From positions 44,553 through 108,552 of the forward strand of contig CAYOHR010000004.1 of assembly GCA_964403835.1 (NCBI GenBank): DNA of 64,000 nucleotides, written 5' to 3'. Positions 31,249 through 39,737 of this stretch are shown piece by piece (the first letter of the stretch is position 1; every line of letters starts with the position of its first letter). A program made the translations under genes and the position numbers. The notes beneath the pieces are model-generated. The model had not been told where the DNA came from and ran no database searches. It was given only the letters and a program-made list of their open reading frames with translations. This DNA is from an uncultured Flavobacteriales bacterium (GTDB lineage Bacteria; Bacteroidota; Bacteroidia; Flavobacteriales_G; JALEGO01).

Positions 31249-34200
31249 ATGAATAAATATTTCCTTACTCTATCAAGCTTATTTTTAATATCTATAAAAA
31301 TATTTTCTGCTTCTTTTACAGCTACACAATCAGGCAATTGGAACATTGGAACAACTTGGGGGGGCTTATGTGCTGCGGGTTGTACAGCAGGAGTTGATTT
31401 TCCCGGAACCGGAGATGATGTTATCATTGACGCCTTTGATATTAGTGTAACGGCCGATGCAACTTGCCTAACTATCACTGTAAATCCCGATAATACAAGC
31501 TTAAGTATAAATTCTACGTTTTTGCTTACAGTAGAAGATTTTATTGAAATTTATTCTGCAGCTGACGCCAGTGCATTTGACTTTAATATAGATGGTTACC
31601 TTTATGTAGAAAATTATATCCTGATGGACGTTGGTAACAGTGGAACGTATAATATGAATATTAATTCAGGAGGTAAACTAAATATTAATTCAGCCACTGG
31701 TACCAGTCTTTTTAAATCAAGAAAGTCAGGCGGCGGGGCTATTATTAATATCAATGTCAATGATACCTTTATTACGAATGGAAATTTAACTTTACAAGGA
31801 CAAACGCATACCGATGATTCGGTAAATATGTTTGTGAATGCGCGCACAGAAATTTTGGGTACAACAGGGCTAAAGTTGACTTCAACGAGTGCAAATGCAG
31901 ATGTTCTTTTGGAGTTAAATGACACCTTAGTTTGTTTCGGAGCCTTAACATTAAATACTTCTTCTAACCAAAATGATGTAAGGCTAGATATGACAAATAC
32001 AAATAATGCATTTCTTGATTTGCAAGGTCAATTATCTATCACAAACCAAGGTGGTTTAATTGATGCTAGTGCTGCAACAAATACCTTTTTTCGTTTTTCC
32101 GGGTCAGCTGGTCAAAATGTAAAAATGGGATCGGGGTATGAATATGATAATTTGATTATTGCCAATACGAGCGTTTCAGGCGCTGCTTTAACAAGTGGAG
32201 TTACTACTTCGGGGGTATTAGGAAATATTACCATTGAAAATAACTCTAAGCTGGTTGCCGGCTCTAATGATATTACTTTTGGAGGAGATTTAACCATTAA
32301 TGGTAATGGAACCATTACACAAACAAGCACAAACAAAATAAGTTTTGCAGGTTCTGCTCAGCAAACTATATACGGAACCTTTGTGTTTCCGGGAATTGCA
32401 GAAGTTGATAATTCATCCATGAATGGACTTACTTTAGATGGCTCTTCTGCCGTAACTTTTAATGACTTGAATATTTTAGCTGCCCGAAAATTTAATAGTG
32501 CAGGTGCTAATTATATAATCAAAGAAGATATAACAAATAATGGAGGAACATATACCGCAAATGTAGGTGATACCACTACTTTTAGTGGAACCAGTCTTCA
32601 GACCGTAACAGGTACTATCCCTTTTGATCATACCATTATTGCCAATTCATCAGGTGTAAATTTAGCCACAGGAGGTGATGCTATTTCTTTTAATAATTTA
32701 ACAATTAATAGTGGTTGTTTTTTAGACCCAGATGCGAATGATTTTTCCGTAAGAGGAAATTGGATCAATAATAATGCAGAAGCAGGTTTTACCCCTGATG
32801 CAGGTTGTCGAGTTCGATTTAATGGAAGTACAGCACAAACTATTACTGGTTCGGACACTACTGATTTTCAAGATATTAGTGTTGAAAATACTTCAACTGG
32901 ACTTACCGCAACAAACCCCATAGATATTATTGGAGTTTTAGATGTACAAGATGGCGCTTTTAATGGGAATTCTGTTGCACGCTTGGTATCCAATTCTTCG
33001 GCTACCGCAGTTATAGCAGATTTATCGGATGGTACCCCGGATAACCCTGCGGTTACTAACATCATTGTAGAAAGATATATGAATGAGCATGCTGGCTCTC
33101 CAGGATGGAACTTTGTTGCATCCCCTTTAACCAATACAGTATTAGATGATTGGGATGATGATTTGTATACTACCGGAAATGTTGGTAGCGATGATCCTCA
33201 ATGGTTTTTTTCAATACAAGGATGGGACGAAGCGGCATGTGCGTCTACTACTCCTGATTTAACTACACAAAATACAAATAATGGATCAGATCAATCAGGT
33301 TGGTTCATTTATGAAAATAGCGGGGTGACAATAGATGCCACAGGAAGTATTAATCAGGGTATTGTAAGTATAGCCGGATTAACATGTGGAGTAGGTTGTG
33401 CTTTTGGAGATGGATGGCATGTTTTAGGAAATCCGTATGCTGCGCATGTGACTTGGGATAATGTAACATTGACCAATATAAGTGGTGCAGGCGGAGGATC
33501 TGCCTATGTTTTACAAAATGACAATAGTGGAAATTTTATAGAATATGACCACAGCACTCCAACAGACATCTTAGCGTCTGGCGAAGGTTTTTATGTGCAG
33601 GTTGCTGCTGGTATGGTAGGAGAAGTACGATTTGACGAAAATGATAAAACCAATTCAAATACTCCGGATAATTTTAACAGTGTAAAACTGGTAGGAAACA
33701 TAGAGCCGGTCTTAAAAATTAATATGTTGGCTGATGGTACGCGTTCTGATTTTACCAAAATTGGTTTGCGAGATAACGCTGCTAAAGGATATGAGTGGTT
33801 TAACGAAACAACTAAAATGGGCAATGCAAATAACCTGTTAAACATAGCAACCGTTGTGGATGATATCAAAGTTTCAAGAAATTCTATTCCTTCGGATGTT
33901 GATAGTATCGTTATTCCTATTGTTTTATACAGACAAAATAATGCTTTAAGTACTACTAATCAATATGATTTGACTTTTAATGATGTAGATGCTTTTTTAG
34001 ATCAAAATAAATGTATGACCTTGATTGATTCAACTGATTTAAGCTCAACAATTATTGATACCGAAGGTCAAACGCATTCAACCACCATGATGGATGATGG
34101 TGTGGCTCGATTATTCTTACATGTTAGCTCACCTTTAACTATTTCTTCAACCAATCCTACCTGTTTTGATTTGCCAAACGCAACTGCACGGGTAACAGGC

Positions 34201-35565
34201 AAAGGAAACGGACCTTTTAACTATACTTGGCAAAATGCAAACGGAAATACTGTTCGAACTACAACAGGTGTTTTCGGAGCTGATTCATTAAGTAATGTTA
34301 CGGAGGGTATTTATACTGTAATTGTAACAAACAATGAAGGTTGTGGAACAGTACGTGCTAAAATTGAGCTAATGGCGCCTGTTTCGCCGAACTATACTAC
34401 TTTAACTTCTGAAGATGTTACTTGTCATGGAGGAAATGATGGAACAGCCTCTGCCCATATTTTTACTGGAAATGCAGGTCGAACATTTTTATGGTCAAAT
34501 GGAAATAGCGATTCGCTAGCAACAAATTTATCGGCAGGAACGTATACAGTTTCTATAACCGATAGTACTGGTTGTTCATTCAGCAAGAGTATTATGATTA
34601 ATGATGCAATATCAAATATTACCCAAAAATCTAAAGCAGATATTACCTGTTTTGGAAGCACCAATGGAGGTATTTTGCTTCAAATGAATGGAGACCTAAG
34701 TAATTATACTTTTGGATGGTCAAATGGAGTTACTACGCATGATGTATATGGTTTAAGCGCCGGAACTTATTATGTTACGGTTTCTCATTCGAATGGTTGT
34801 GTTGAGACAGATTCAGTTACCATAGATCAACCTGAAGAAATTAACAGCAATGCAGTTATACAAAATGCAAGTTGTTTTGGTTTAATGGATGGTACTATTA
34901 CCTTAAATACAACAGGTGGTGTTGCTCCTTATGATATTAATTTGGCGGGATATAACACCAGCTTTTTAGATTCGTTAACTCCTGGTAGTTATACTTTATT
35001 TATCATGGACCAAAATCAATGCCAAAAAAGCCTTGTATTAAATGTGACCGAGCCTCCTTTAGTGGATGCCGCTTTTAGCACTGCTAATGATACTTTTTAT
35101 GTAAATGAACCGGTTATTTTTACAAATACTTCTGCCGGAGCTACCCAATCCGATTGGAATTTTGGTGATGCAAGCACTTCATCTATTACAGATCCAATTC
35201 ACACGTATTTAGCTTCAGGAACCTATTCAGTTCGTTTATTGTCTTCTCAAAATGGGCAATGTGCCGATTCTACCGATCAAATGCTTTATATATTGGATGA
35301 ATTAGTTTCAGTGAATGCTAATGGCGATAAAGATTTTATAAAAATTACCAGAACAGATAATACTTTGATTATTAATACTTCATTTAATAAACCTGAATTT
35401 TTGAAAATTAAAGTTTATAATGCATTAGGACAAGATTTAGTAAGAAGCACCGAAGAAACCGTTTCTATATCTACGATTAAAATAGCCTTGCCAGATACAA
35501 AAGGCATGTATATTTTATCAATTTATAAAAATGATGAGATAATAACGAAGCAAGTAATCAGATAA
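31249..35565 (+). CDS. Large T9SS cargo (type A CTD): G8-like N-terminus, beta-helical repeats, SprB repeats, PKD domain
   Basis: TATQSGNWNIGTTW..PGTGDDVII; repeated F.GSA.QTI.G; VERYM..WNFVASP; GWHVLGNPY; DVTCHGGNDG..YTVSITD.GC; FTNTSAGA..DWNFGD; VYNALGQ..GMY. Confidence 0.85.
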   Translation: MNKYFLTLSSLFLISIKIFSASFTATQSGNWNIGTTWGGLCAAGCTAGVDFPGTGDDVIIDAFDISVTADATCLTITVNPDNTSLSINSTFLLTVEDFIEIYSAADASAFDFNIDGYLYVENYILMDVGNSGTYNMNINSGGKLNINSATGTSLFKSRKSGGGAIININVNDTFITNGNLTLQGQTHTDDSVNMFVNARTEILGTTGLKLTSTSANADVLLELNDTLVCFGALTLNTSSNQNDVRLDMTNTNNAFLDLQGQLSITNQGGLIDASAATNTFFRFSGSAGQNVKMGSGYEYDNLIIANTSVSGAALTSGVTTSGVLGNITIENNSKLVAGSNDITFGGDLTINGNGTITQTSTNKISFAGSAQQTIYGTFVFPGIAEVDNSSMNGLTLDGSSAVTFNDLNILAARKFNSAGANYIIKEDITNNGGTYTANVGDTTTFSGTSLQTVTGTIPFDHTIIANSSGVNLATGGDAISFNNLTINSGCFLDPDANDFSVRGNWINNNAEAGFTPDAGCRVRFNGSTAQTITGSDTTDFQDISVENTSTGLTATNPIDIIGVLDVQDGAFNGNSVARLVSNSSATAVIADLSDGTPDNPAVTNIIVERYMNEHAGSPGWNFVASPLTNTVLDDWDDDLYTTGNVGSDDPQWFFSIQGWDEAACASTTPDLTTQNTNNGSDQSGWFIYENSGVTIDATGSINQGIVSIAGLTCGVGCAFGDGWHVLGNPYAAHVTWDNVTLTNISGAGGGSAYVLQNDNSGNFIEYDHSTPTDILASGEGFYVQVAAGMVGEVRFDENDKTNSNTPDNFNSVKLVGNIEPVLKINMLADGTRSDFTKIGLRDNAAKGYEWFNETTKMGNANNLLNIATVVDDIKVSRNSIPSDVDSIVIPIVLYRQNNALSTTNQYDLTFNDVDAFLDQNKCMTLIDSTDLSSTIIDTEGQTHSTTMMDDGVARLFLHVSSPLTISSTNPTCFDLPNATARVTGKGNGPFNYTWQNANGNTVRTTTGVFGADSLSNVTEGIYTVIVTNNEGCGTVRAKIELMAPVSPNYTTLTSEDVTCHGGNDGTASAHIFTGNAGRTFLWSNGNSDSLATNLSAGTYTVSITDSTGCSFSKSIMINDAISNITQKSKADITCFGSTNGGILLQMNGDLSNYTFGWSNGVTTHDVYGLSAGTYYVTVSHSNGCVETDSVTIDQPEEINSNAVIQNASCFGLMDGTITLNTTGGVAPYDINLAGYNTSFLDSLTPGSYTLFIMDQNQCQKSLVLNVTEPPLVDAAFSTANDTFYVNEPVIFTNTSAGATQSDWNFGDASTSSITDPIHTYLASGTYSVRLLSSQNGQCADSTDQMLYILDELVSVNANGDKDFIKITRTDNTLIINTSFNKPEFLKIKVYNALGQDLVRSTEETVSISTIKIALPDTKGMYILSIYKNDEIITKQVIR

Positions 35566-35597: not shown

Positions 35598-35813
35598 TTG
35601 AAAAAAATCCTAGTTATATCATTTGTCTTTTTAGGGATTAACTTATTACAAGCAGCTCCACCACCACCACCTGCTGGTGGCGGTGATCCTGCATGTTGGC
35701 CTCCTCCGTGCGTGCCTATTGATGGTGGTGTTGTATTTTTGCTTGCAGCAGGCATTGGGTTAGGAGCAAAAAAATCGATCTCTCTTCTTAAAAAAGAAAA
35801 GACTACCGCTTAG
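35598..35813 (+). CDS. PID-CTERM sorting-signal protein with a very short Pro/Cys-rich mature region
   Basis: TTG start, signal peptide, APPPPPAGGGDPACWPPPC, VPIDGG motif (35712-35729), TM segment, basic tail; immediately upstream of an exosortase. Confidence 0.85.
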   Translation: MKKILVISFVFLGINLLQAAPPPPPAGGGDPACWPPPCVPIDGGVVFLLAAGIGLGAKKSISLLKKEKTTA

Positions 35814-35819
35814 TCTTTT

Positions 35820-36365
35820 ATGAGCACTTCGGTATTTAAGCAGCCTATTTTCCTTTTTTTTATAAAATTTTTCCTTTTATACTTTTCTTGGTATTTTATT
35901 TATAAATATTGGATTCATCCTGGGCATAATATTGATTTATGGATTGCCAATAACCTGGTTGATGGAGTTAAAGTTATTTTAAAAGCATTTCATTATCCAT
36001 TAATTAATTTTAGCCAATACGATCGAGAGTATAGAGCGGTTGGTATTGATGGAAGCAATGGAGTTTATATTGGCGATAGCTGCAATGGATTAACCTTATT
36101 TAGCATTTATGTGTTTTTTTTAATATCCTTCCCCGGAAGAGTATTATCAAAAATTTATTTTTCTGTTATTGGAGTAGTGGTTATTCATATTTGTAACATT
36201 CTACGAATATTCGCCCTTTGCCTAGTGGCATTACATTATCCGCAATACCTCGATTTTAATCATACCTATACTTTTACTATTATTATGTATGCCATTATAT
36301 TTTTAATGTGGTATATCTGGTTAAATAAATTTTCAAAATCCAAAAAAACAGTCCTTGAAAAATAA
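35820..36365 (+). CDS. Exosortase-family protein (XrtF/XrtX-like)
   Basis: IGDSCNGL (Cys), NILRI (Arg), FNHTYTF (His) in a polytopic membrane protein. Confidence 0.88.
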   Translation: MSTSVFKQPIFLFFIKFFLLYFSWYFIYKYWIHPGHNIDLWIANNLVDGVKVILKAFHYPLINFSQYDREYRAVGIDGSNGVYIGDSCNGLTLFSIYVFFLISFPGRVLSKIYFSVIGVVVIHICNILRIFALCLVALHYPQYLDFNHTYTFTIIMYAIIFLMWYIWLNKFSKSKKTVLEK

Positions 36366-36834
36366 AAATTTGCTCTTATTCAAGCTAAGTATTTTGGTTA
36401 TCCTTTTTGTTTTGGTTGGATTTTTACGTGAACATATTTTTGTTCAAATTAATTACAGATTGGGCTATTTGAGGACTCTTGATCCTTCGTATGACCCCTA
36501 TATGACCCTGCCATTTATCAGGGATTTATCTTTTTCTACCTTATACTATGGCAAGTTTGTACTTACCCTTCTATTTTCTTTAATATACATGCTTTTAGGG
36601 TATACTTTAATAAATATGTTATTTCATAACAGTGTATTCAACAAATACACCATTGCTCTTTTTCTACTTGTAATTTTTATATCGTTTATTTTGTATTTAA
36701 CAGGGTATTTATACAACGATATTTATTCTTCGTATGAGATAGCTAGGTATTTAGCAGGATTGGTTCAGTCTCCTATTATTCCAATGGTTTTGGTTTTGGT
36801 TTTTAAATTCGGAAAGACAGAAGTTGAATCTTGA
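36355..36834 (+). CDS. Exosortase-associated membrane protein
   Basis: TTG start overlapping the exosortase stop, four TM segments, LREHIF N-terminal motif, LVQSPI near the C-terminus. Confidence 0.7.
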   Translation: MKNKNLLLFKLSILVILFVLVGFLREHIFVQINYRLGYLRTLDPSYDPYMTLPFIRDLSFSTLYYGKFVLTLLFSLIYMLLGYTLINMLFHNSVFNKYTIALFLLVIFISFILYLTGYLYNDIYSSYEIARYLAGLVQSPIIPMVLVLVFKFGKTEVES

Positions 36835-37646
36835 TTTAAGAAAATAGTATAGGAAGCAATGCAAAATATGGCAAAATCAGCCACGCCAGCCATCCACAAA
36901 ATAAATACATGGAAAACAATACCAAGGACTAAAAGCCCCTTTTTTACCTTCTTAAACCATACTAAAAAGGGAAAAACCGCTTGGTAGCCCAATGCAAAAT
37001 AATTGGCTATTACGGCAATCCATTGTATTTTAAATATATACGAGAAAAAAGGGGTTGAATAGCCTTCGGTTTTCGCTAATAAGTATAAGGCGTTCCCTTG
37101 TATCCATTCGGTACCCTGCAACTTATACCAGGCTGAAAAAAAGTACATCAGCGCGATTTGAATTTGGCAAGCATATACACTTATATTGCTTAACATATTA
37201 AACAGCTTATTCTTATGCTGTTTGCTTTCAGATAAAAAGACATTAAAAAACAAGAGCATATTTAATAAATGATGCCCTCCGTTTGTTATTTCAGGGGCCT
37301 TAAAACAAAGGGTTTTAAAAATAAAATAAACCCCAAGGGCTGCTATTTTGGGGTATTTTCCAAATAAACCTAATAAAAGAAGGAGGATGTATATCCAAAT
37401 TACAACCAAATAGAAATTTGCAAAAGGAGGAATGGTTAATAACGTAAAAAAGCCGCTTATAAAACCCGTTGGAACCTGTACTAAATGGGTTAGCGCATCG
37501 GGTGCGTAAAAAGTCGACCAGTGATTGATAGTGGTTAAAATATCAAATAACAAAGCGAAATAAATACATCGTCGGAACCATTGTATAGCAAATACAAAGT
37601 GATTTTCTTGTAATAGACAGGTCGGTATTTTTAATAATTTATTCAA
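36765..37646 (-). CDS. HTTM-domain membrane protein (SdpB-like)
   Basis: NGGHHL, QIALMYFFSAWYKL...W..GNAL, LGIVFHVFI, F....IASY motifs. Confidence 0.8.
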   Translation of the reverse strand: MNKLLKIPTCLLQENHFVFAIQWFRRCIYFALLFDILTTINHWSTFYAPDALTHLVQVPTGFISGFFTLLTIPPFANFYLVVIWIYILLLLLGLFGKYPKIAALGVYFIFKTLCFKAPEITNGGHHLLNMLLFFNVFLSESKQHKNKLFNMLSNISVYACQIQIALMYFFSAWYKLQGTEWIQGNALYLLAKTEGYSTPFFSYIFKIQWIAVIANYFALGYQAVFPFLVWFKKVKKGLLVLGIVFHVFILWMAGVADFAIFCIASYTIFLNQDSTSVFPNLKTKTKTIGIIGD

Positions 37647-38205
37647 AAGAAGGTCTTATTGGTTCAATAGGCATAAATAAAGTGTCATTTTTGCAATTGC
37701 GAGCAGCATTCAGGCAAACACACGTAAAAGCTACTTGTATGGCAGAGGGATGCACGTTTTGCGAATCTATCTTTTTTTTAGCTTCTGTGAGCGCTCCATA
37801 ATAAGATTTGGTTCTTCTTAAACGGGCATAATCAATGGTTTTTCCCATGGTTTCCTGCATCGAAATTAAATTACGGGCATAATACTCATGCATGCGCAAC
37901 ATTTTTCCGTGCCAGCTAATTCGGTATGTATGATGTTTTTTGATGAAATCTTCACTTAAATAATTCCATGTACTTGTTTCATTTTCAATATGATATCTAT
38001 ATAAAACTTTGAGTTCGCAGGGTGGAGGATCGGGGGCAAATAGTTTCCAGTTTTGATGAAAAAGCGGAAGCATATACTTAGCTGTTACCTTATTTATCGG
38101 AGCCGATGTATATTTTCCATCCGTTGCATAAATAAGGGTAAATAAAAAATGAACGAAAAATATGAAAATTAAAATCCAGGTTAAATAAATTTGGTATTTT
38201 TTCAT
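37639..38205 (-). CDS. DUF5819/SdpA-like protein
   Basis: N-terminal TM followed by YMLPLFHQNWKLFAPDPP; 8-nt overlap with the HTTM gene. Confidence 0.75.
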   Translation of the reverse strand: MKKYQIYLTWILIFIFFVHFLFTLIYATDGKYTSAPINKVTAKYMLPLFHQNWKLFAPDPPPCELKVLYRYHIENETSTWNYLSEDFIKKHHTYRISWHGKMLRMHEYYARNLISMQETMGKTIDYARLRRTKSYYGALTEAKKKIDSQNVHPSAIQVAFTCVCLNAARNCKNDTLFMPIEPIRPSFE

Positions 38206-38264
38206 ACTTAATTGCGACAGCTAAAACGAACTTAAAACTAATTTTTGAAAGTATACATCACTTT

Positions 38265-39737
38265 ATGCAGGTTTTTGCTATTATGAGAAAGAACTTTTTT
38301 TACTTTTTAACAATATTGCTGGTTAATGCAGTCATTATGTCGCTTGAGTTAGTTGGGCCACGTATTATTGCACCCTTTTTTGGGAGCACGGCCATTGTAT
38401 GGACCGGTATTATTTCAACCATTTTAGTATCTCTATGCATAGGGTATTATGTAGGTGCCTATGTAGTTCGGAAATACCCAAATATTGAAATAAGCCTTTC
38501 TTATACTATTCTTTTAGGGGCTTTTTTTATTCTTTTAACCCATTATTTAAGCCCTAAAATTCTAATTCACATATCGTCTTATCCTATTTCTTTATTAGCT
38601 AAATCATTTTTGGCAAGTATTTTCATTTTTAGTCTGCCAACCAGTACACTTTCCATTATTCCAATTTTAATTAGTAAGGCAATATTGGTGGGACCATCTG
38701 AAAAAATGCCCCAAAGGGTGAGTATTTTATTTAGTTTAGGTACATTAGGGGCTTTGCTTGGTGTTTGTGTGACCACCTTTATTTTAATACCCACTTTTGG
38801 AAGCAGTAAAATATTTTATTTGCTATCTATCTTATTGATTATCAATAGTTTTTGTTTTAATGCATCTCTTTATAAATTTTTTATAGCTGTTTTGCTGCTT
38901 GTTTCAAGTGTATTGTTTTATTCGAAAAGTTCTTTTGGGAATAATACTATTGAAGTTGATTCTTTATATAACCATATTTTTATTTACAATACATTAAATT
39001 TTTCCAATCAAGAACCTATAAAAGTGCTTCAGTTAAATGAACATATCAATTCTGCCATTTATACAAAATACCCCGATAGTTTGGTTTTTCCGTACCTTGA
39101 AAAAACCTATCAAATTATAAAAAATAAAAAACCTTTAAAAGATATACTCATGGTGGGTGGGGGAGCGTATACTTTGCCCAATAAGGTTTTGGAAACGTTG
39201 TTAAATGTAGACATAGATGTGGTAGAAATAGACCCCATATTGCATGAAATGGCAGTAAAATATTTTACTCTCAACCAAAGCTCCAGGCTGCACATATATG
39301 ATGAAGATGGACGTACCTTTTTTAAGAAAAGAAAAAAGCAGTATGATGTTGTTTTTTTAGATGTATTATCTTCTTTATCCAATGTACCCGATCACCTAAC
39401 CACGCAAGAAGCTTTTTCAGAAATTAAATCGATTTTAAAAGAAGATGGGGTGGTTGTTTTTGCTATGATGGGGGCTTTGGAGGGCAAGTATTCTCATTTT
39501 CCGAAAGATGAATATAAAACGCTTGCATTTGTTTTTCCACATGTACAATGGGTGTCCGTTTCAAGTACTAAAAAGGATGTTTTGCAAAATATTTTACTGG
39601 TAGCAAGCAATAGCAGTATTGATAATTTGCTTGGAGATACCAATAAATTAGATATTTTTAATTTAAATCAATTAAATCGAAATATAATTTTGAAAGATGA
39701 TTTTTCTTGCTACTCTTACCTGAATAGTTTTAAATAA
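38265..39737 (+). CDS. Fused membrane/spermidine-synthase-like SAM-dependent methyltransferase
   Basis: N-terminal TMs (MSLELVGPRIIAPFFGST, GTLGALLG) followed by LMVGGGAY, VEIDP, DGRTF, YDVVFLD. Confidence 0.85.
   Translation: MQVFAIMRKNFFYFLTILLVNAVIMSLELVGPRIIAPFFGSTAIVWTGIISTILVSLCIGYYVGAYVVRKYPNIEISLSYTILLGAFFILLTHYLSPKILIHISSYPISLLAKSFLASIFIFSLPTSTLSIIPILISKAILVGPSEKMPQRVSILFSLGTLGALLGVCVTTFILIPTFGSSKIFYLLSILLIINSFCFNASLYKFFIAVLLLVSSVLFYSKSSFGNNTIEVDSLYNHIFIYNTLNFSNQEPIKVLQLNEHINSAIYTKYPDSLVFPYLEKTYQIIKNKKPLKDILMVGGGAYTLPNKVLETLLNVDIDVVEIDPILHEMAVKYFTLNQSSRLHIYDEDGRTFFKKRKKQYDVVFLDVLSSLSNVPDHLTTQEAFSEIKSILKEDGVVVFAMMGALEGKYSHFPKDEYKTLAFVFPHVQWVSVSSTKKDVLQNILLVASNSSIDNLLGDTNKLDIFNLNQLNRNIILKDDFSCYSYLNSFK

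What the first reader, a model, noticed from the sequence alone, without database searches (positions are those of the whole stretch)
36765..38205. Orphan SdpA/SdpB-like maturation pair with no SdpC-like precursor, facing the exosortase operon
Seen: overlapping DUF5819-like (QNWKLFAPDPP) and HTTM genes in sdpA-sdpB order, with no precursor ORF downstream on the same strand. Known: in Bacillus, SdpA and SdpB are needed to mature the secreted, disulfide-containing SdpC peptide, and HTTM is the membrane domain of vitamin-K-dependent carboxylase. Inference: an extracytoplasmic peptide-modifying pair with an unknown substrate. The nearest secreted Cys-pair peptide is the PID-CTERM protein about 1 kb away.
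Basis: partly seen in the sequence, partly recalled or inferred. Interest (0 to 1): 0.65.

Follow-up and report, generated by a model that had tools for sequence, protein, structure and literature searches.

The report
Split GGCX-like membrane enzyme gene pair
Two overlapping genes encode a two-part membrane enzyme distantly related to the vitamin-K-dependent carboxylase; it sits beside an exosortase operon in many related genomes, but that looks like an old shared gene order rather than proof that it modifies the neighbouring peptide.

Summary
A 188-aa DUF5819 gene (37639-38205, minus) overlaps a 293-aa HTTM gene (36765-37646, minus) by 8 bp. No precursor ORF lies downstream. The HTTM gene instead converges on, and overlaps by 70 bp, the last gene of a PID-CTERM peptide / XrtX / XrtX-associated operon.

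- The HTTM protein belongs to the GGCX/SdpB superfamily. Its fold matches GGCX, and the Q-x4-Y-x6-K motif carrying the GGCX catalytic lysine is invariant.
- It falls far below the SdpB family cut-off, and DUF5819 shows no sequence similarity to SdpA.
- The adjacency to XrtX is not unique: 21 of 80 species-level XrtX loci have the pair, as do 7 metagenome loci.
- Both modules lie in one conserved housekeeping block (LptD-PurA-FUR-RelA-FAA hydrolase | DUF5819-HTTM | SHMT | XrtX operon | T9SS cargo | Wzc-like) and are each present or absent independently of the other.
- The Cys-x-P-P-P-Cys-x-PID peptide is the same with or without the pair.

Most likely this is a split, periplasm-facing, quinol-dependent HTTM enzyme with an unknown substrate. 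A dedicated role on the PID-CTERM peptide remains possible (about 0.2). It is a new member of a known, uncharacterised kind, of moderate to low interest.

The parts
37639..38205 (-). DUF5819 subunit gene, 188 aa. It has an N-terminal transmembrane helix, the FHQNWKLFAPDPP motif and a mixed alpha/beta C-terminal domain with 4 Cys.
   Evidence: Pfam PF19136 at 42.3 bits. The AF2 model has pLDDT 78.8, with helices at 3-27 and 35-56 followed by alpha/beta. It is 36-41% identical to relatives in the same arrangement. F49, F56, A57 and P58 are invariant in 18 XrtX-linked homologues.
36765..37646 (-). HTTM subunit gene, 293 aa, polytopic membrane protein. Q163, Y168, K175, W181, G184 and H246 are conserved.
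   Evidence: Pfam HTTM at 27.5 bits and TIGR04033 at 30.7 bits. The top 15 Foldseek PDB hits are all human GGCX, prob 1.00. The motif residues are invariant in 60-62 of 62 homologues and line up with GGCX Q206, Y211, K218, W223 and G226.
37639..37646 (-). 8-nt overlap (TTGAATAA) of the DUF5819 stop codon and the HTTM TTG start codon, which suggests translational coupling.
   Evidence: Read directly from the sequence. Homologous loci show 4-40 nt overlaps of the same kind.
36765..36834 (.). 70-bp tail-to-tail overlap of the HTTM gene with the convergent XrtX-associated gene.
   Evidence: Overlaps of 8-101 bp occur in 15 of 17 abutting loci. The HTTM tail also overlaps SHMT or MoxR genes where those are the downstream neighbours, so the overlap is not specific to XrtX.
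38206..38264 (.). 59-bp divergent intergenic region between DUF5819 and the MFS/spermidine-synthase gene. Any promoter for the pair must lie in or near it.
   Evidence: No convincing promoter motif was found.
35598..35813 (+). Neighbour, not shown to be part of the module: 71-aa PID-CTERM minimal peptide (signal peptide, Pro/Gly-rich linker, CWPPPCVPID, transmembrane helix, KK).
   Evidence: NF046080 at 38.7 bits. The same peptide type is present in 72 of 80 XrtX loci whether or not the pair is there.
35820..36365 (+). Neighbour: exosortase XrtX.
   Evidence: NF046081 at 169.3 bits against a cut-off of 170. There are 158 relatives in GTDB species genomes.
36355..36834 (+). Neighbour: XrtX-associated membrane protein.
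   Evidence: NF046082 at 45 bits. It is conserved next to XrtX in 71 of 80 loci.
38265..39737 (+). Neighbour: fused MFS/spermidine-synthase-like membrane protein, divergent from DUF5819.
   Evidence: NF037959 at 182.3 bits. The same divergent pairing is seen in L010, L016, L029, L037 and L091.
31249..35565 (+). Neighbour: 1438-aa T9SS cargo (SprB repeats, PKD, Por_Secre_tail) upstream of the PID peptide gene.
   Evidence: A homologous large T9SS protein lies upstream of the peptide gene in 43 of 80 XrtX loci.

Best explanation
The two genes encode the two subunits of one inner-membrane enzyme of the HTTM / vitamin-K-dependent-carboxylase (GGCX) superfamily. One is a polytopic HTTM subunit that keeps the GGCX catalytic-lysine motif. 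The other is a single-pass DUF5819 subunit, translationally coupled to it, whose FHQNWKLFAP-PP motif and extracytoplasmic domain complete the active site.

By analogy with GGCX and MloH, the enzyme would use reduced menaquinone and O2 at the periplasmic face to make a strong base. That base would deprotonate (and possibly carboxylate) a substrate that is still unknown.

The pair is not an SdpAB orthologue and has no cis-encoded precursor. It belongs to a Bacteroidota lineage of such pairs that is inherited vertically inside a conserved chromosomal block: FAA hydrolase | DUF5819-HTTM | SHMT | XrtX operon | T9SS cargo | Wzc-like. Its position against the XrtX operon is best explained by this old synteny, not by a dedicated partnership.

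Shown here: gene structure, family and fold assignment, motif conservation, and the synteny pattern. Inferred: the two-subunit complex, quinol chemistry, periplasmic orientation, and independence from XrtX.
For: - Family and fold. DUF5819 scores 42.3 bits and HTTM 27.5 bits. The HTTM model's top 15 PDB hits are all GGCX (prob 1.00, TMq 0.51-0.57, 263-273 columns), and the next hit has prob 0.11.
- Motif. Window Q163-x4-Y168-x6-K175-x5-W181-x2-G184 matches GGCX Q206-x4-Y211-x6-K218-x4-W223-x2-G226. These residues are invariant in 60-62 of 62 homologues. K217/K218 are the residues mutated in PDB entries 9l6r and 9l6s.
- Two-subunit complex. The genes overlap by 8 nt. DUF5819 and HTTM were found together in every locus that carried either gene and was long enough to hold both. 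An independent AF3 prediction gives a high-confidence DUF5819+HTTM complex resembling whole GGCX, and MloH is a fused form (bioRxiv 10.64898/2026.08.19.745780).
- Synteny. The conserved housekeeping backbone surrounds both modules.
- Independence in one direction. XrtX loci split into 21 with the pair and 48 without it despite at least 5 kb downstream. Loci such as L070 and L071 keep A>SHMT>FAAh with no pair.
- Independence in the other direction. The pair occurs with no XrtX in L097, L098, L104, L106, L108, L117, L141 and L146, and in L113, L114, L122 and L145 with shorter flanks. There are no tblastn remnants of XrtX or XrtX-associated genes, and the HMM scan of ORFs found no PID-CTERM peptide there.
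- Phylogeny. Presence and absence are interleaved on both NJ trees.
- Baseline. SHMT is adjacent to XrtX more often than the pair is (43 of 80), and FAA hydrolase is the immediate neighbour of DUF5819 in 17 of 49 loci.
- Peptide. The PID peptide motif is identical with and without the pair.
Against: - The adjacency recurs across deep divergence (XrtX 36-48% identical) and survives local rearrangements: the pair on either side of SHMT, inverted onto the XrtX strand in L020 and L021, and kept when the backbone is broken in the window's own clade. This is what selection for linkage would also produce.
- I could only see +/-8-10 kb, so 'absent' means 'not adjacent'. Whole-genome co-occurrence was not testable.
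- Other HTTM proteins with known roles act on peptides or peptide-like intermediates (SdpB, GGCX, MloH, linaridin clusters), and a second Bacteroidota DUF5819-HTTM subfamily does have a conserved small secreted peptide gene directly upstream. A peptide substrate is therefore plausible a priori, and the PID peptide is the only candidate nearby.
- The HTTM structure model is of low confidence (pLDDT 60.3).
- The DUF5819 monomer gave no GGCX fold match.
- No DCC- or VKOR-type quinone-recycling partner is in the window.
Confidence: 0.55

Rival explanations
1. The pair is an accessory tailoring enzyme of the XrtX sorting system. It modifies the PID-CTERM minimal peptide (or other PID-CTERM cargo) in the periplasm before or after exosortase cleavage. 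Possible reactions are carboxylation of the invariant Asp of the PID motif or chemistry at the CWPPPC loop.
For: - The adjacency is conserved in 21 of 80 species-level XrtX loci, in L001, L007 and L008, and in 7 metagenome loci. It spans several XrtX clades and four different local arrangements.
- Every closest relative of the window's DUF5819 on a contig long enough to judge is XrtX-linked.
- Enzyme and peptide would face the same compartment.
- Other HTTM systems mature peptides (PMC6818787; PMC9927463).
- The sister subfamily has a cis-encoded small peptide.
Against: - 48 of 69 assessable XrtX operons have no adjacent pair, yet carry the same peptide motif.
- The pair persists in 8-12 loci from which the XrtX operon is missing, including L114-L117 where it abuts the T9SS cargo gene directly.
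- The arrangement is convergent rather than co-operonic in most loci.
- Housekeeping genes show equal or higher adjacency.
- No peptide feature varies with the pair.
- The mature peptide has no Glu, and its only invariant acidic residue is the sorting-motif Asp.
Confidence: 0.22
2. SdpAB-like toxin or RiPP maturation in trans. The pair processes a secreted precursor encoded elsewhere in the genome, as SdpAB process SdpC or as the HTTM protein of linaridin clusters may do.
For: - The HTTM protein has weak similarity to the SdpB model (20 of 21 homologues hit TIGR04033, best E 6.7e-18).
- The gene order, small gene then HTTM, matches sdpA-sdpB.
- The Flavobacteriia subfamily sits in an operon with a conserved ~75-aa Thr-rich signal-peptide ORF, an outer-membrane barrel and a DCC oxidoreductase.
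Against: - No SdpA similarity, and far below the SdpB cut-off.
- No homologue of the Thr-rich peptide or of DCC in the 64-kb window or in any backbone-type locus.
- The location in a vertically inherited core-gene block is unlike a mobile toxin or immunity locus, and there are no immunity or export genes.
Confidence: 0.1
3. The pair works with its divergent neighbour, the fused MFS/spermidine-synthase-like membrane protein, on a small-molecule or lipid (polyamine-type) substrate at the membrane.
For: The divergent DUF5819 / MFS-SpdSyn arrangement with a short shared intergenic region recurs in the window, L010, L016, L029, L037 and L091.
Against: It is restricted to a few of the pair-bearing loci. 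Most DUF5819-HTTM pairs have FAA hydrolase or other genes there instead. No known chemistry links HTTM enzymes to polyamines.
Confidence: 0.08

Closest known systems
DUF5819 + HTTM(-DCC1) gene pairs, e.g. Melghirimyces thermohalophilus A0A1G6IAS5 / A0A1G6IBF2 (bioRxiv 10.64898/2026.08.19.745780)
   Same: The same two Pfam families in adjacent genes. DUF5819 has an N-terminal transmembrane helix. The K-x5-W spacing in the HTTM subunit (K189/W195 there, K175/W181 here) is the same. That pair is predicted to form a complex resembling whole GGCX.
   Different: The window's HTTM subunit has no fused or neighbouring DCC1-like domain. The phylum and genomic context differ. No experimental data exist for either pair.
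[quoted passage not shown] PDB 9l20, 9bux, 9wfc)
   Same: The transmembrane HTTM fold, and the Q-x4-Y-x6-K...W..G motif containing the catalytic Lys218.
   Different: GGCX is a single 758-aa chain with a large lumenal domain that clamps a propeptide. Here the non-HTTM part is a separate 188-aa protein with no detectable fold match. The position aligned by eye with GGCX His160 is Gly (NGG motif). Sequence profiles do not reach GGCX. No Glu-rich substrate is nearby.
Bacillus subtilis SdpA/SdpB (and YitP/YitO), which mature SdpC/YitM
   Same: A small gene followed by an HTTM-superfamily membrane protein gene. SdpAB are needed to process a secreted peptide (PMC6818787).
   Different: The HTTM protein scores 30.7 bits against the 178.4 needed for the SdpB family. 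DUF5819 is not similar to SdpA. There is no sdpC-like gene downstream and no sdpRI-like immunity or regulator genes. The organism is Gram-negative, and the pair lies in a core-genome synteny block.
MloH of malonomycin biosynthesis (Law et al. 2018, as cited in the preprint)
   Same: A bacterial HTTM enzyme with demonstrated carboxylase chemistry on a non-Glu substrate. It is reported to contain a region structurally equivalent to DUF5819.
   Different: MloH is a fused single chain inside a PKS-NRPS cluster. There are no biosynthetic genes here. The comparison was not testable with the sequences in hand.
Flavobacteriia operon: Thr-rich peptide - DUF5819 - HTTM - OMP_b-brl_3/TonB-type barrel - DCC1-like (Weeksella virosa, Polaribacter cellanae, and conjugative-element contigs L002-L006)
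   Same: The same two families with 20-30% identity, the same order and the same start/stop overlap.
   Different: That subfamily has a cis-encoded candidate precursor, an outer-membrane barrel and a DCC oxidoreductase, and can sit on mobile elements. The window's subfamily has none of these.

Membership tests
DUF5819 (PF19136) | Score above the Pfam gathering threshold | tested here: met
   42.3 bits against 27.1. 17 of 18 XrtX-linked homologues also match.
HTTM domain (PF05090) | Score above the Pfam gathering threshold | tested here: inconclusive
   27.5 bits against 27.7, E 2.9e-6, covering model positions 15-258 of 259. Precomputed Pfam hits list PF05090 for this protein and its relatives.
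HTTM domain / GGCX superfamily | GGCX-like transmembrane fold | tested here: met
   The top 15 Foldseek PDB hits are all GGCX, prob 1.00, TMq 0.51-0.57. The model itself is of low confidence (pLDDT 60.3).
HTTM domain / GGCX superfamily | Catalytic lysine (GGCX Lys218) in its conserved motif | tested here: met
   Window Q163-x4-Y168-x6-K175 matches GGCX Q206-x4-Y211-x6-K218. K175 is present in 62 of 62 homologues. The alignment was made by eye on the motif, not by a tool.
Vitamin-K-dependent carboxylase (GGCX) proper | Covalently attached lumenal domain that binds a propeptide, and a Glu-rich substrate | tested here: not met
   The HTTM protein ends after the membrane domain at 293 aa. DUF5819 has no significant fold match to GGCX or to anything else in the PDB. 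There is no Gla-type substrate nearby.
Vitamin-K-dependent carboxylase (GGCX) proper | Quinol- and O2-dependent epoxidase/carboxylase activity | not testable with these tools
   Needs biochemistry.
SdpAB-SdpC system | SdpB-family protein (TIGR04033 above cut-off) | tested here: not met
   30.7 bits against 178.4.
SdpAB-SdpC system | SdpA-family partner (TIGR04034 / PF17418) | tested here: not met
   No hit at E<=1 for any of the 18 DUF5819 proteins in either library.
SdpAB-SdpC system | SdpC-like secreted precursor encoded downstream in the operon | tested here: not met
   No same-strand ORF follows; the HTTM 3' end overlaps a convergent gene. The rest of the genome was not available.
XrtX / PID-CTERM sorting system (as an accessory component) | Consistent co-occurrence with XrtX, the XrtX-associated protein and the PID-CTERM peptide | tested here: inconclusive
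   Adjacent in 21 of 69 assessable XrtX loci and in 7 of 15-19 assessable DUF5819-HTTM loci. Each occurs without the other in the same backbone. Whole-genome co-occurrence was not testable.
XrtX / PID-CTERM sorting system (as an accessory component) | A substrate feature that varies with presence of the enzyme | tested here: not met
   The C-x-P-P-P-C-[IV]-P-[IV]-D-G-G peptides are indistinguishable between loci with and without the pair.

The most novel reading that the evidence does not exclude
The DUF5819/HTTM pair is an optional tailoring enzyme of the XrtX system. On this reading it is a bacterial vitamin-K-dependent-carboxylase relative that chemically modifies the tiny PID-CTERM peptide, for instance by carboxylating the invariant Asp of the sorting motif or acting on the CWPPPC loop. 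That would change what the exosortase attaches to the cell surface. It would be the first substrate assigned to a DUF5819-HTTM enzyme and the first accessory enzyme of an exosortase system in Bacteroidota.
Probability: 0.2. Interest if true: 0.7.

Novelty: new member of a known kind. Interest (0 to 1): 0.35.

Why it matters
Bacterial HTTM proteins are relatives of the human clotting-factor carboxylase, and very few have a known substrate. XrtX/PID-CTERM is a sorting system that is annotated but has not been studied. A real enzyme-substrate pair here would open both problems. This analysis shows that the adjacency is widespread but sits inside an ancient synteny block and is dispensable in both directions. 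The locus is therefore a candidate rather than a discovery. The work also defines which genomes would allow a clean test: those with the pair only, with XrtX only, or with both.

Tried and rejected
- Word-indexed homologue search with the DUF5819 protein found only the query itself, so I used the HMMER representative search instead.
- Sequence-profile searches of the PDB with the HTTM and DUF5819 alignments found nothing relevant.
The 3-sequence alignment gave only pLDDT 60.
- Foldseek on the DUF5819 model found no significant match. The preprint's idea that DUF5819 stands in for the GGCX clamp domain could therefore not be confirmed on the monomer.
- The metagenome scan with the 18-sequence DUF5819 alignment failed for lack of a conserved stretch, so I repeated it with 8 sequences.
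- I looked for a peptide feature (acidic residues, Cys spacing, the residue after the first Cys) that correlates with presence of the pair. None was found.
- I looked for the Thr-rich peptide and for DCC1-like genes in the window and in XrtX-type loci. None was found.
- Promoter and terminator scans, and the Bacteroidota -7 motif, gave nothing above chance for the pair.
- A search of sequencing runs found one sludge-metagenome DNA run holding 7% of the words and no RNA.
- I considered the 70-bp convergent overlap with the XrtX-associated gene as a sign of coupling. I rejected this because the HTTM tail overlaps whatever convergent gene follows it, SHMT in L097 and MoxR in L106.
Full report
**What is there**

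The window carries two intact, overlapping minus-strand genes.
- 37639-38205 encodes a 188-aa protein with one N-terminal transmembrane helix and the motif FHQNWKLFAPDPP.
- 36765-37646 encodes a 293-aa polytopic membrane protein.
- The first matches Pfam DUF5819 (42.3 bits, cut-off 27.1). The second matches Pfam HTTM at 27.5 bits, just under the gathering score of 27.7.
- The second also matches the SdpB model TIGR04033, but only at 30.7 bits against a cut-off of 178.4.
- The HTTM TTG start overlaps the DUF5819 stop by 8 nt (TTGAATAA).
- There is no downstream ORF on that strand. The HTTM 3' end overlaps by 70 bp the 3' end of a convergent gene.

That convergent gene is the last gene of a plus-strand operon: a 71-aa PID-CTERM peptide (NF046080), exosortase XrtX (169.3 bits against 170) and the XrtX-associated membrane protein. 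Upstream of DUF5819, 59 bp away and divergent, lies a fused MFS/spermidine-synthase-like gene. Base composition is uniform across the region.

**What the proteins are**

The HTTM protein is a true member of the GGCX/HTTM superfamily.
- My AF2 model had to be built from only three sequences and is poor (pLDDT 60.3). Even so, its 15 best PDB matches are all human vitamin-K-dependent carboxylase (prob 1.00, TMq 0.51-0.57, about 265 aligned columns). The next match drops to prob 0.11.
- In 62 homologues collected here, Q163, Y168, K175, W181, G184 and H246 are invariant or nearly so.
- I verified the human GGCX segment against the PDB. Q206-x4-Y211-x6-K218-x4-W223-x2-G226 has the same spacing as window Q163-x4-Y168-x6-K175-x5-W181-x2-G184. 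K175 therefore corresponds to the GGCX catalytic Lys218, the residue mutated in PDB entries 9l6r and 9l6s.
- Sequence profiles alone do not reach GGCX.

The DUF5819 protein models moderately well (pLDDT 78.8; transmembrane helix, a second helix carrying the motif, then alpha/beta). It has no significant fold match in the PDB.

DUF5819 shows no similarity to SdpA. None of 18 homologues hits Pfam SdpA or TIGR04034 at E<=1. 'SdpA/SdpB-like' is therefore correct only in the loose sense of a small gene followed by an HTTM-superfamily gene.

A 2026 preprint independently predicts that DUF5819 and an adjacent HTTM protein form a confident complex that resembles whole GGCX. It notes that MloH of malonomycin biosynthesis is a fused version.

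**Is the adjacency to the exosortase operon unique?**

No.
- The closest HTTM relative (56% identical, L001) has the same five-gene arrangement.
- So do the closest DUF5819 relatives found on contigs: L007 at 41% identity, and L008 at 36% identity with an SHMT gene inserted between the two modules.
- A scan of one genome per GTDB species with an XrtX alignment found 158 relatives. I analysed the best 80 loci, all of them MAGs of Flavobacteriales, Salibacteraceae, Crocinitomicaceae, Cryomorphaceae, Chitinophagales and similar groups.
- Nearly all of these loci carry the small PID peptide, XrtX and the associated gene. Twenty-one also carry the DUF5819/HTTM pair within 2 kb. Forty-eight have at least 5 kb of downstream sequence and no pair. 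Eleven are too short to judge.
- Loci with the pair fall into at least five clades of an XrtX + associated-protein NJ tree, interleaved with loci lacking it. They are absent from the Chitinophagales/Sphingobacteriia-like clade.

**Why this does not establish a functional link**

Gene-order analysis shows that both modules live in one conserved block of mostly housekeeping genes:

LptD-like < PurA < FUR < RelA/SpoT < FAA hydrolase < | DUF5819 > HTTM > | SHMT < | associated < XrtX < peptide < | large T9SS cargo < | Wzc-like >

.

- In the 80 XrtX loci, SHMT is present in 43 and the Wzc-like gene in 48. Both are more frequent neighbours than the pair.
- A forward scan of metagenome contigs with the DUF5819 motif gave 62 loci. 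Seven have XrtX nearby. Eight have at least 5 kb beyond HTTM and no XrtX, and four more have 2.5-5 kb and none.
- Those XrtX-less loci keep the same backbone. Examples are L097 (FAAh < D > H > SHMT <), L106 (FAAh ... D > H > MoxR < SurA <) and L114-L117 (UvrA < FAAh < D > H > T9SS cargo <).
- tblastn with 142 XrtX and associated proteins finds no remnant in those loci.
- On an HTTM NJ tree, XrtX-linked and unlinked pairs are interleaved.
- FAA hydrolase is the immediate upstream neighbour of DUF5819 in 17 of 49 loci.

Each module has therefore been lost or retained without the other, many times, in one syntenic frame.

The conserved tail-to-tail overlap is also not specific. The HTTM tail overlaps SHMT in L097 and MoxR in L106.

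The peptide's Cys pair is a generic feature. C-x-P-P-P-C-[IV]-P-[IV]-D-G-G is present in essentially every XrtX-linked peptide, with or without the pair, and I found no residue that varies with the pair.

**What still speaks for a link**

- The adjacency survives several local rearrangements: the pair between the associated gene and SHMT, the pair beyond SHMT, and the pair inverted onto the XrtX strand in L020 and L021.
- It also survives loss of the SHMT/FAAh backbone in the window's own clade, where the peptide-XrtX-associated-HTTM-DUF5819-MFS order is kept.
- HTTM proteins with known or suspected roles act on peptides: SdpB, GGCX, and linaridin clusters.
- A second Bacteroidota DUF5819-HTTM subfamily (Weeksella, Polaribacter and conjugative-element contigs) has a conserved ~75-aa Thr-rich signal-peptide ORF directly upstream, followed by an outer-membrane barrel and a DCC1-like oxidoreductase. 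None of these occurs in the window or in XrtX-type loci.
- I could inspect only +/-8-10 kb per locus, so 'absent' means 'not adjacent'.

**Verdict**

The best-supported reading (confidence about 0.55) is as follows. This is a split, translationally coupled, periplasm-facing HTTM enzyme that keeps the GGCX catalytic lysine. It probably uses menaquinol and O2 to generate a strong base. Its substrate is unknown. It is inherited vertically in a conserved core-gene block, and that block happens also to hold the XrtX operon.

An SdpAB-type maturation of a precursor encoded elsewhere is less likely (about 0.1), as is cooperation with the divergent MFS/spermidine-synthase gene (under 0.1).

The pair is a new member of a known but uncharacterised kind (DUF5819 + HTTM). 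Interest is moderate to low unless the peptide link is demonstrated.

Noticed in passing
L089:7704-7940(+), L090:7718-7942(+), L002:9097-9336(+): A conserved ~75-aa ORF lies directly upstream of DUF5819-HTTM-OMP_b-brl_3-DCC1 operons in Weeksella virosa, Polaribacter cellanae and conjugative-element-like contigs. It has a signal-peptide-like N-terminus, an SG..TAI.D.SRNR motif and a long poly-Thr tract, and it has no Pfam match. It is a candidate cis-encoded precursor for that DUF5819/HTTM subfamily.
   Followed up: partly
window 35598-35813 and 72 of 80 XrtX loci (L009-L088): XrtX operons almost always begin with a minimal ~70-aa PID-CTERM peptide. Its mature part is only about 20 residues: a Pro/Gly-rich stretch followed by the near-invariant C-[WIF]-P-P-P-C-[IV]-P-[IV]-D-G-G. 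In effect the operon's own cargo is the sorting signal plus a Cys-Pro loop.
   Followed up: partly
L008, L012, L019, L022, L039, L070, L071, L097, L106 and others: There is an unusually persistent synteny block across Flavobacteriales-like MAGs: LptD-like, PurA, FUR, RelA/SpoT, FAA hydrolase, (DUF5819-HTTM), SHMT, (XrtX operon), a large T9SS cargo gene and a Wzz/GNVR/AAA_31 Wzc-like gene. The Wzc-like gene next to XrtX (48 of 80 loci) fits the known association of exosortases with exopolysaccharide loci.
   Followed up: partly
L027:12340-14229(+) and L027:14250-16121(+): Two tandem proteins of 629 and 623 aa fuse an HTTM-like N-terminal domain, a DCC1-like CxxC domain and a further C-terminal domain. 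They sit just after SHMT next to an XrtX operon, at the position where other genomes have the DUF5819-HTTM pair.
   Followed up: partly
window 36765-36834; also L097:9294-9352 and L106:9369-9385: The poorly conserved, Lys-rich C-terminal tail of the HTTM gene regularly reads 8-101 bp into whatever convergent gene lies downstream (XrtX-associated, SHMT or MoxR). The convergent transcripts must therefore overlap.
   Followed up: partly
window 38265-39737: A fused MFS/spermidine-synthase-like gene (NF037959, 182 bits) is divergent from DUF5819 with a 59-bp spacer. The same divergent pairing occurs in L010, L016, L029, L037 and L091.
   Followed up: partly
window 37639-38205 (DUF5819 residues C63, C161, C163, C170): The window's DUF5819 clade (window, L007, L010, L016, L037) shares Cys residues at PP-x-C and near residues 161-163 that other clades lack. 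This may indicate a clade-specific disulfide in the extracytoplasmic domain.
   Followed up: no
whole window; No GTDB species-representative genome has an XrtX more than 48% identical to the window's. Only one sludge-metagenome run holds any of this sequence (7% of the words). The source organism appears to be a poorly sampled Bacteroidota lineage.
   Followed up: no
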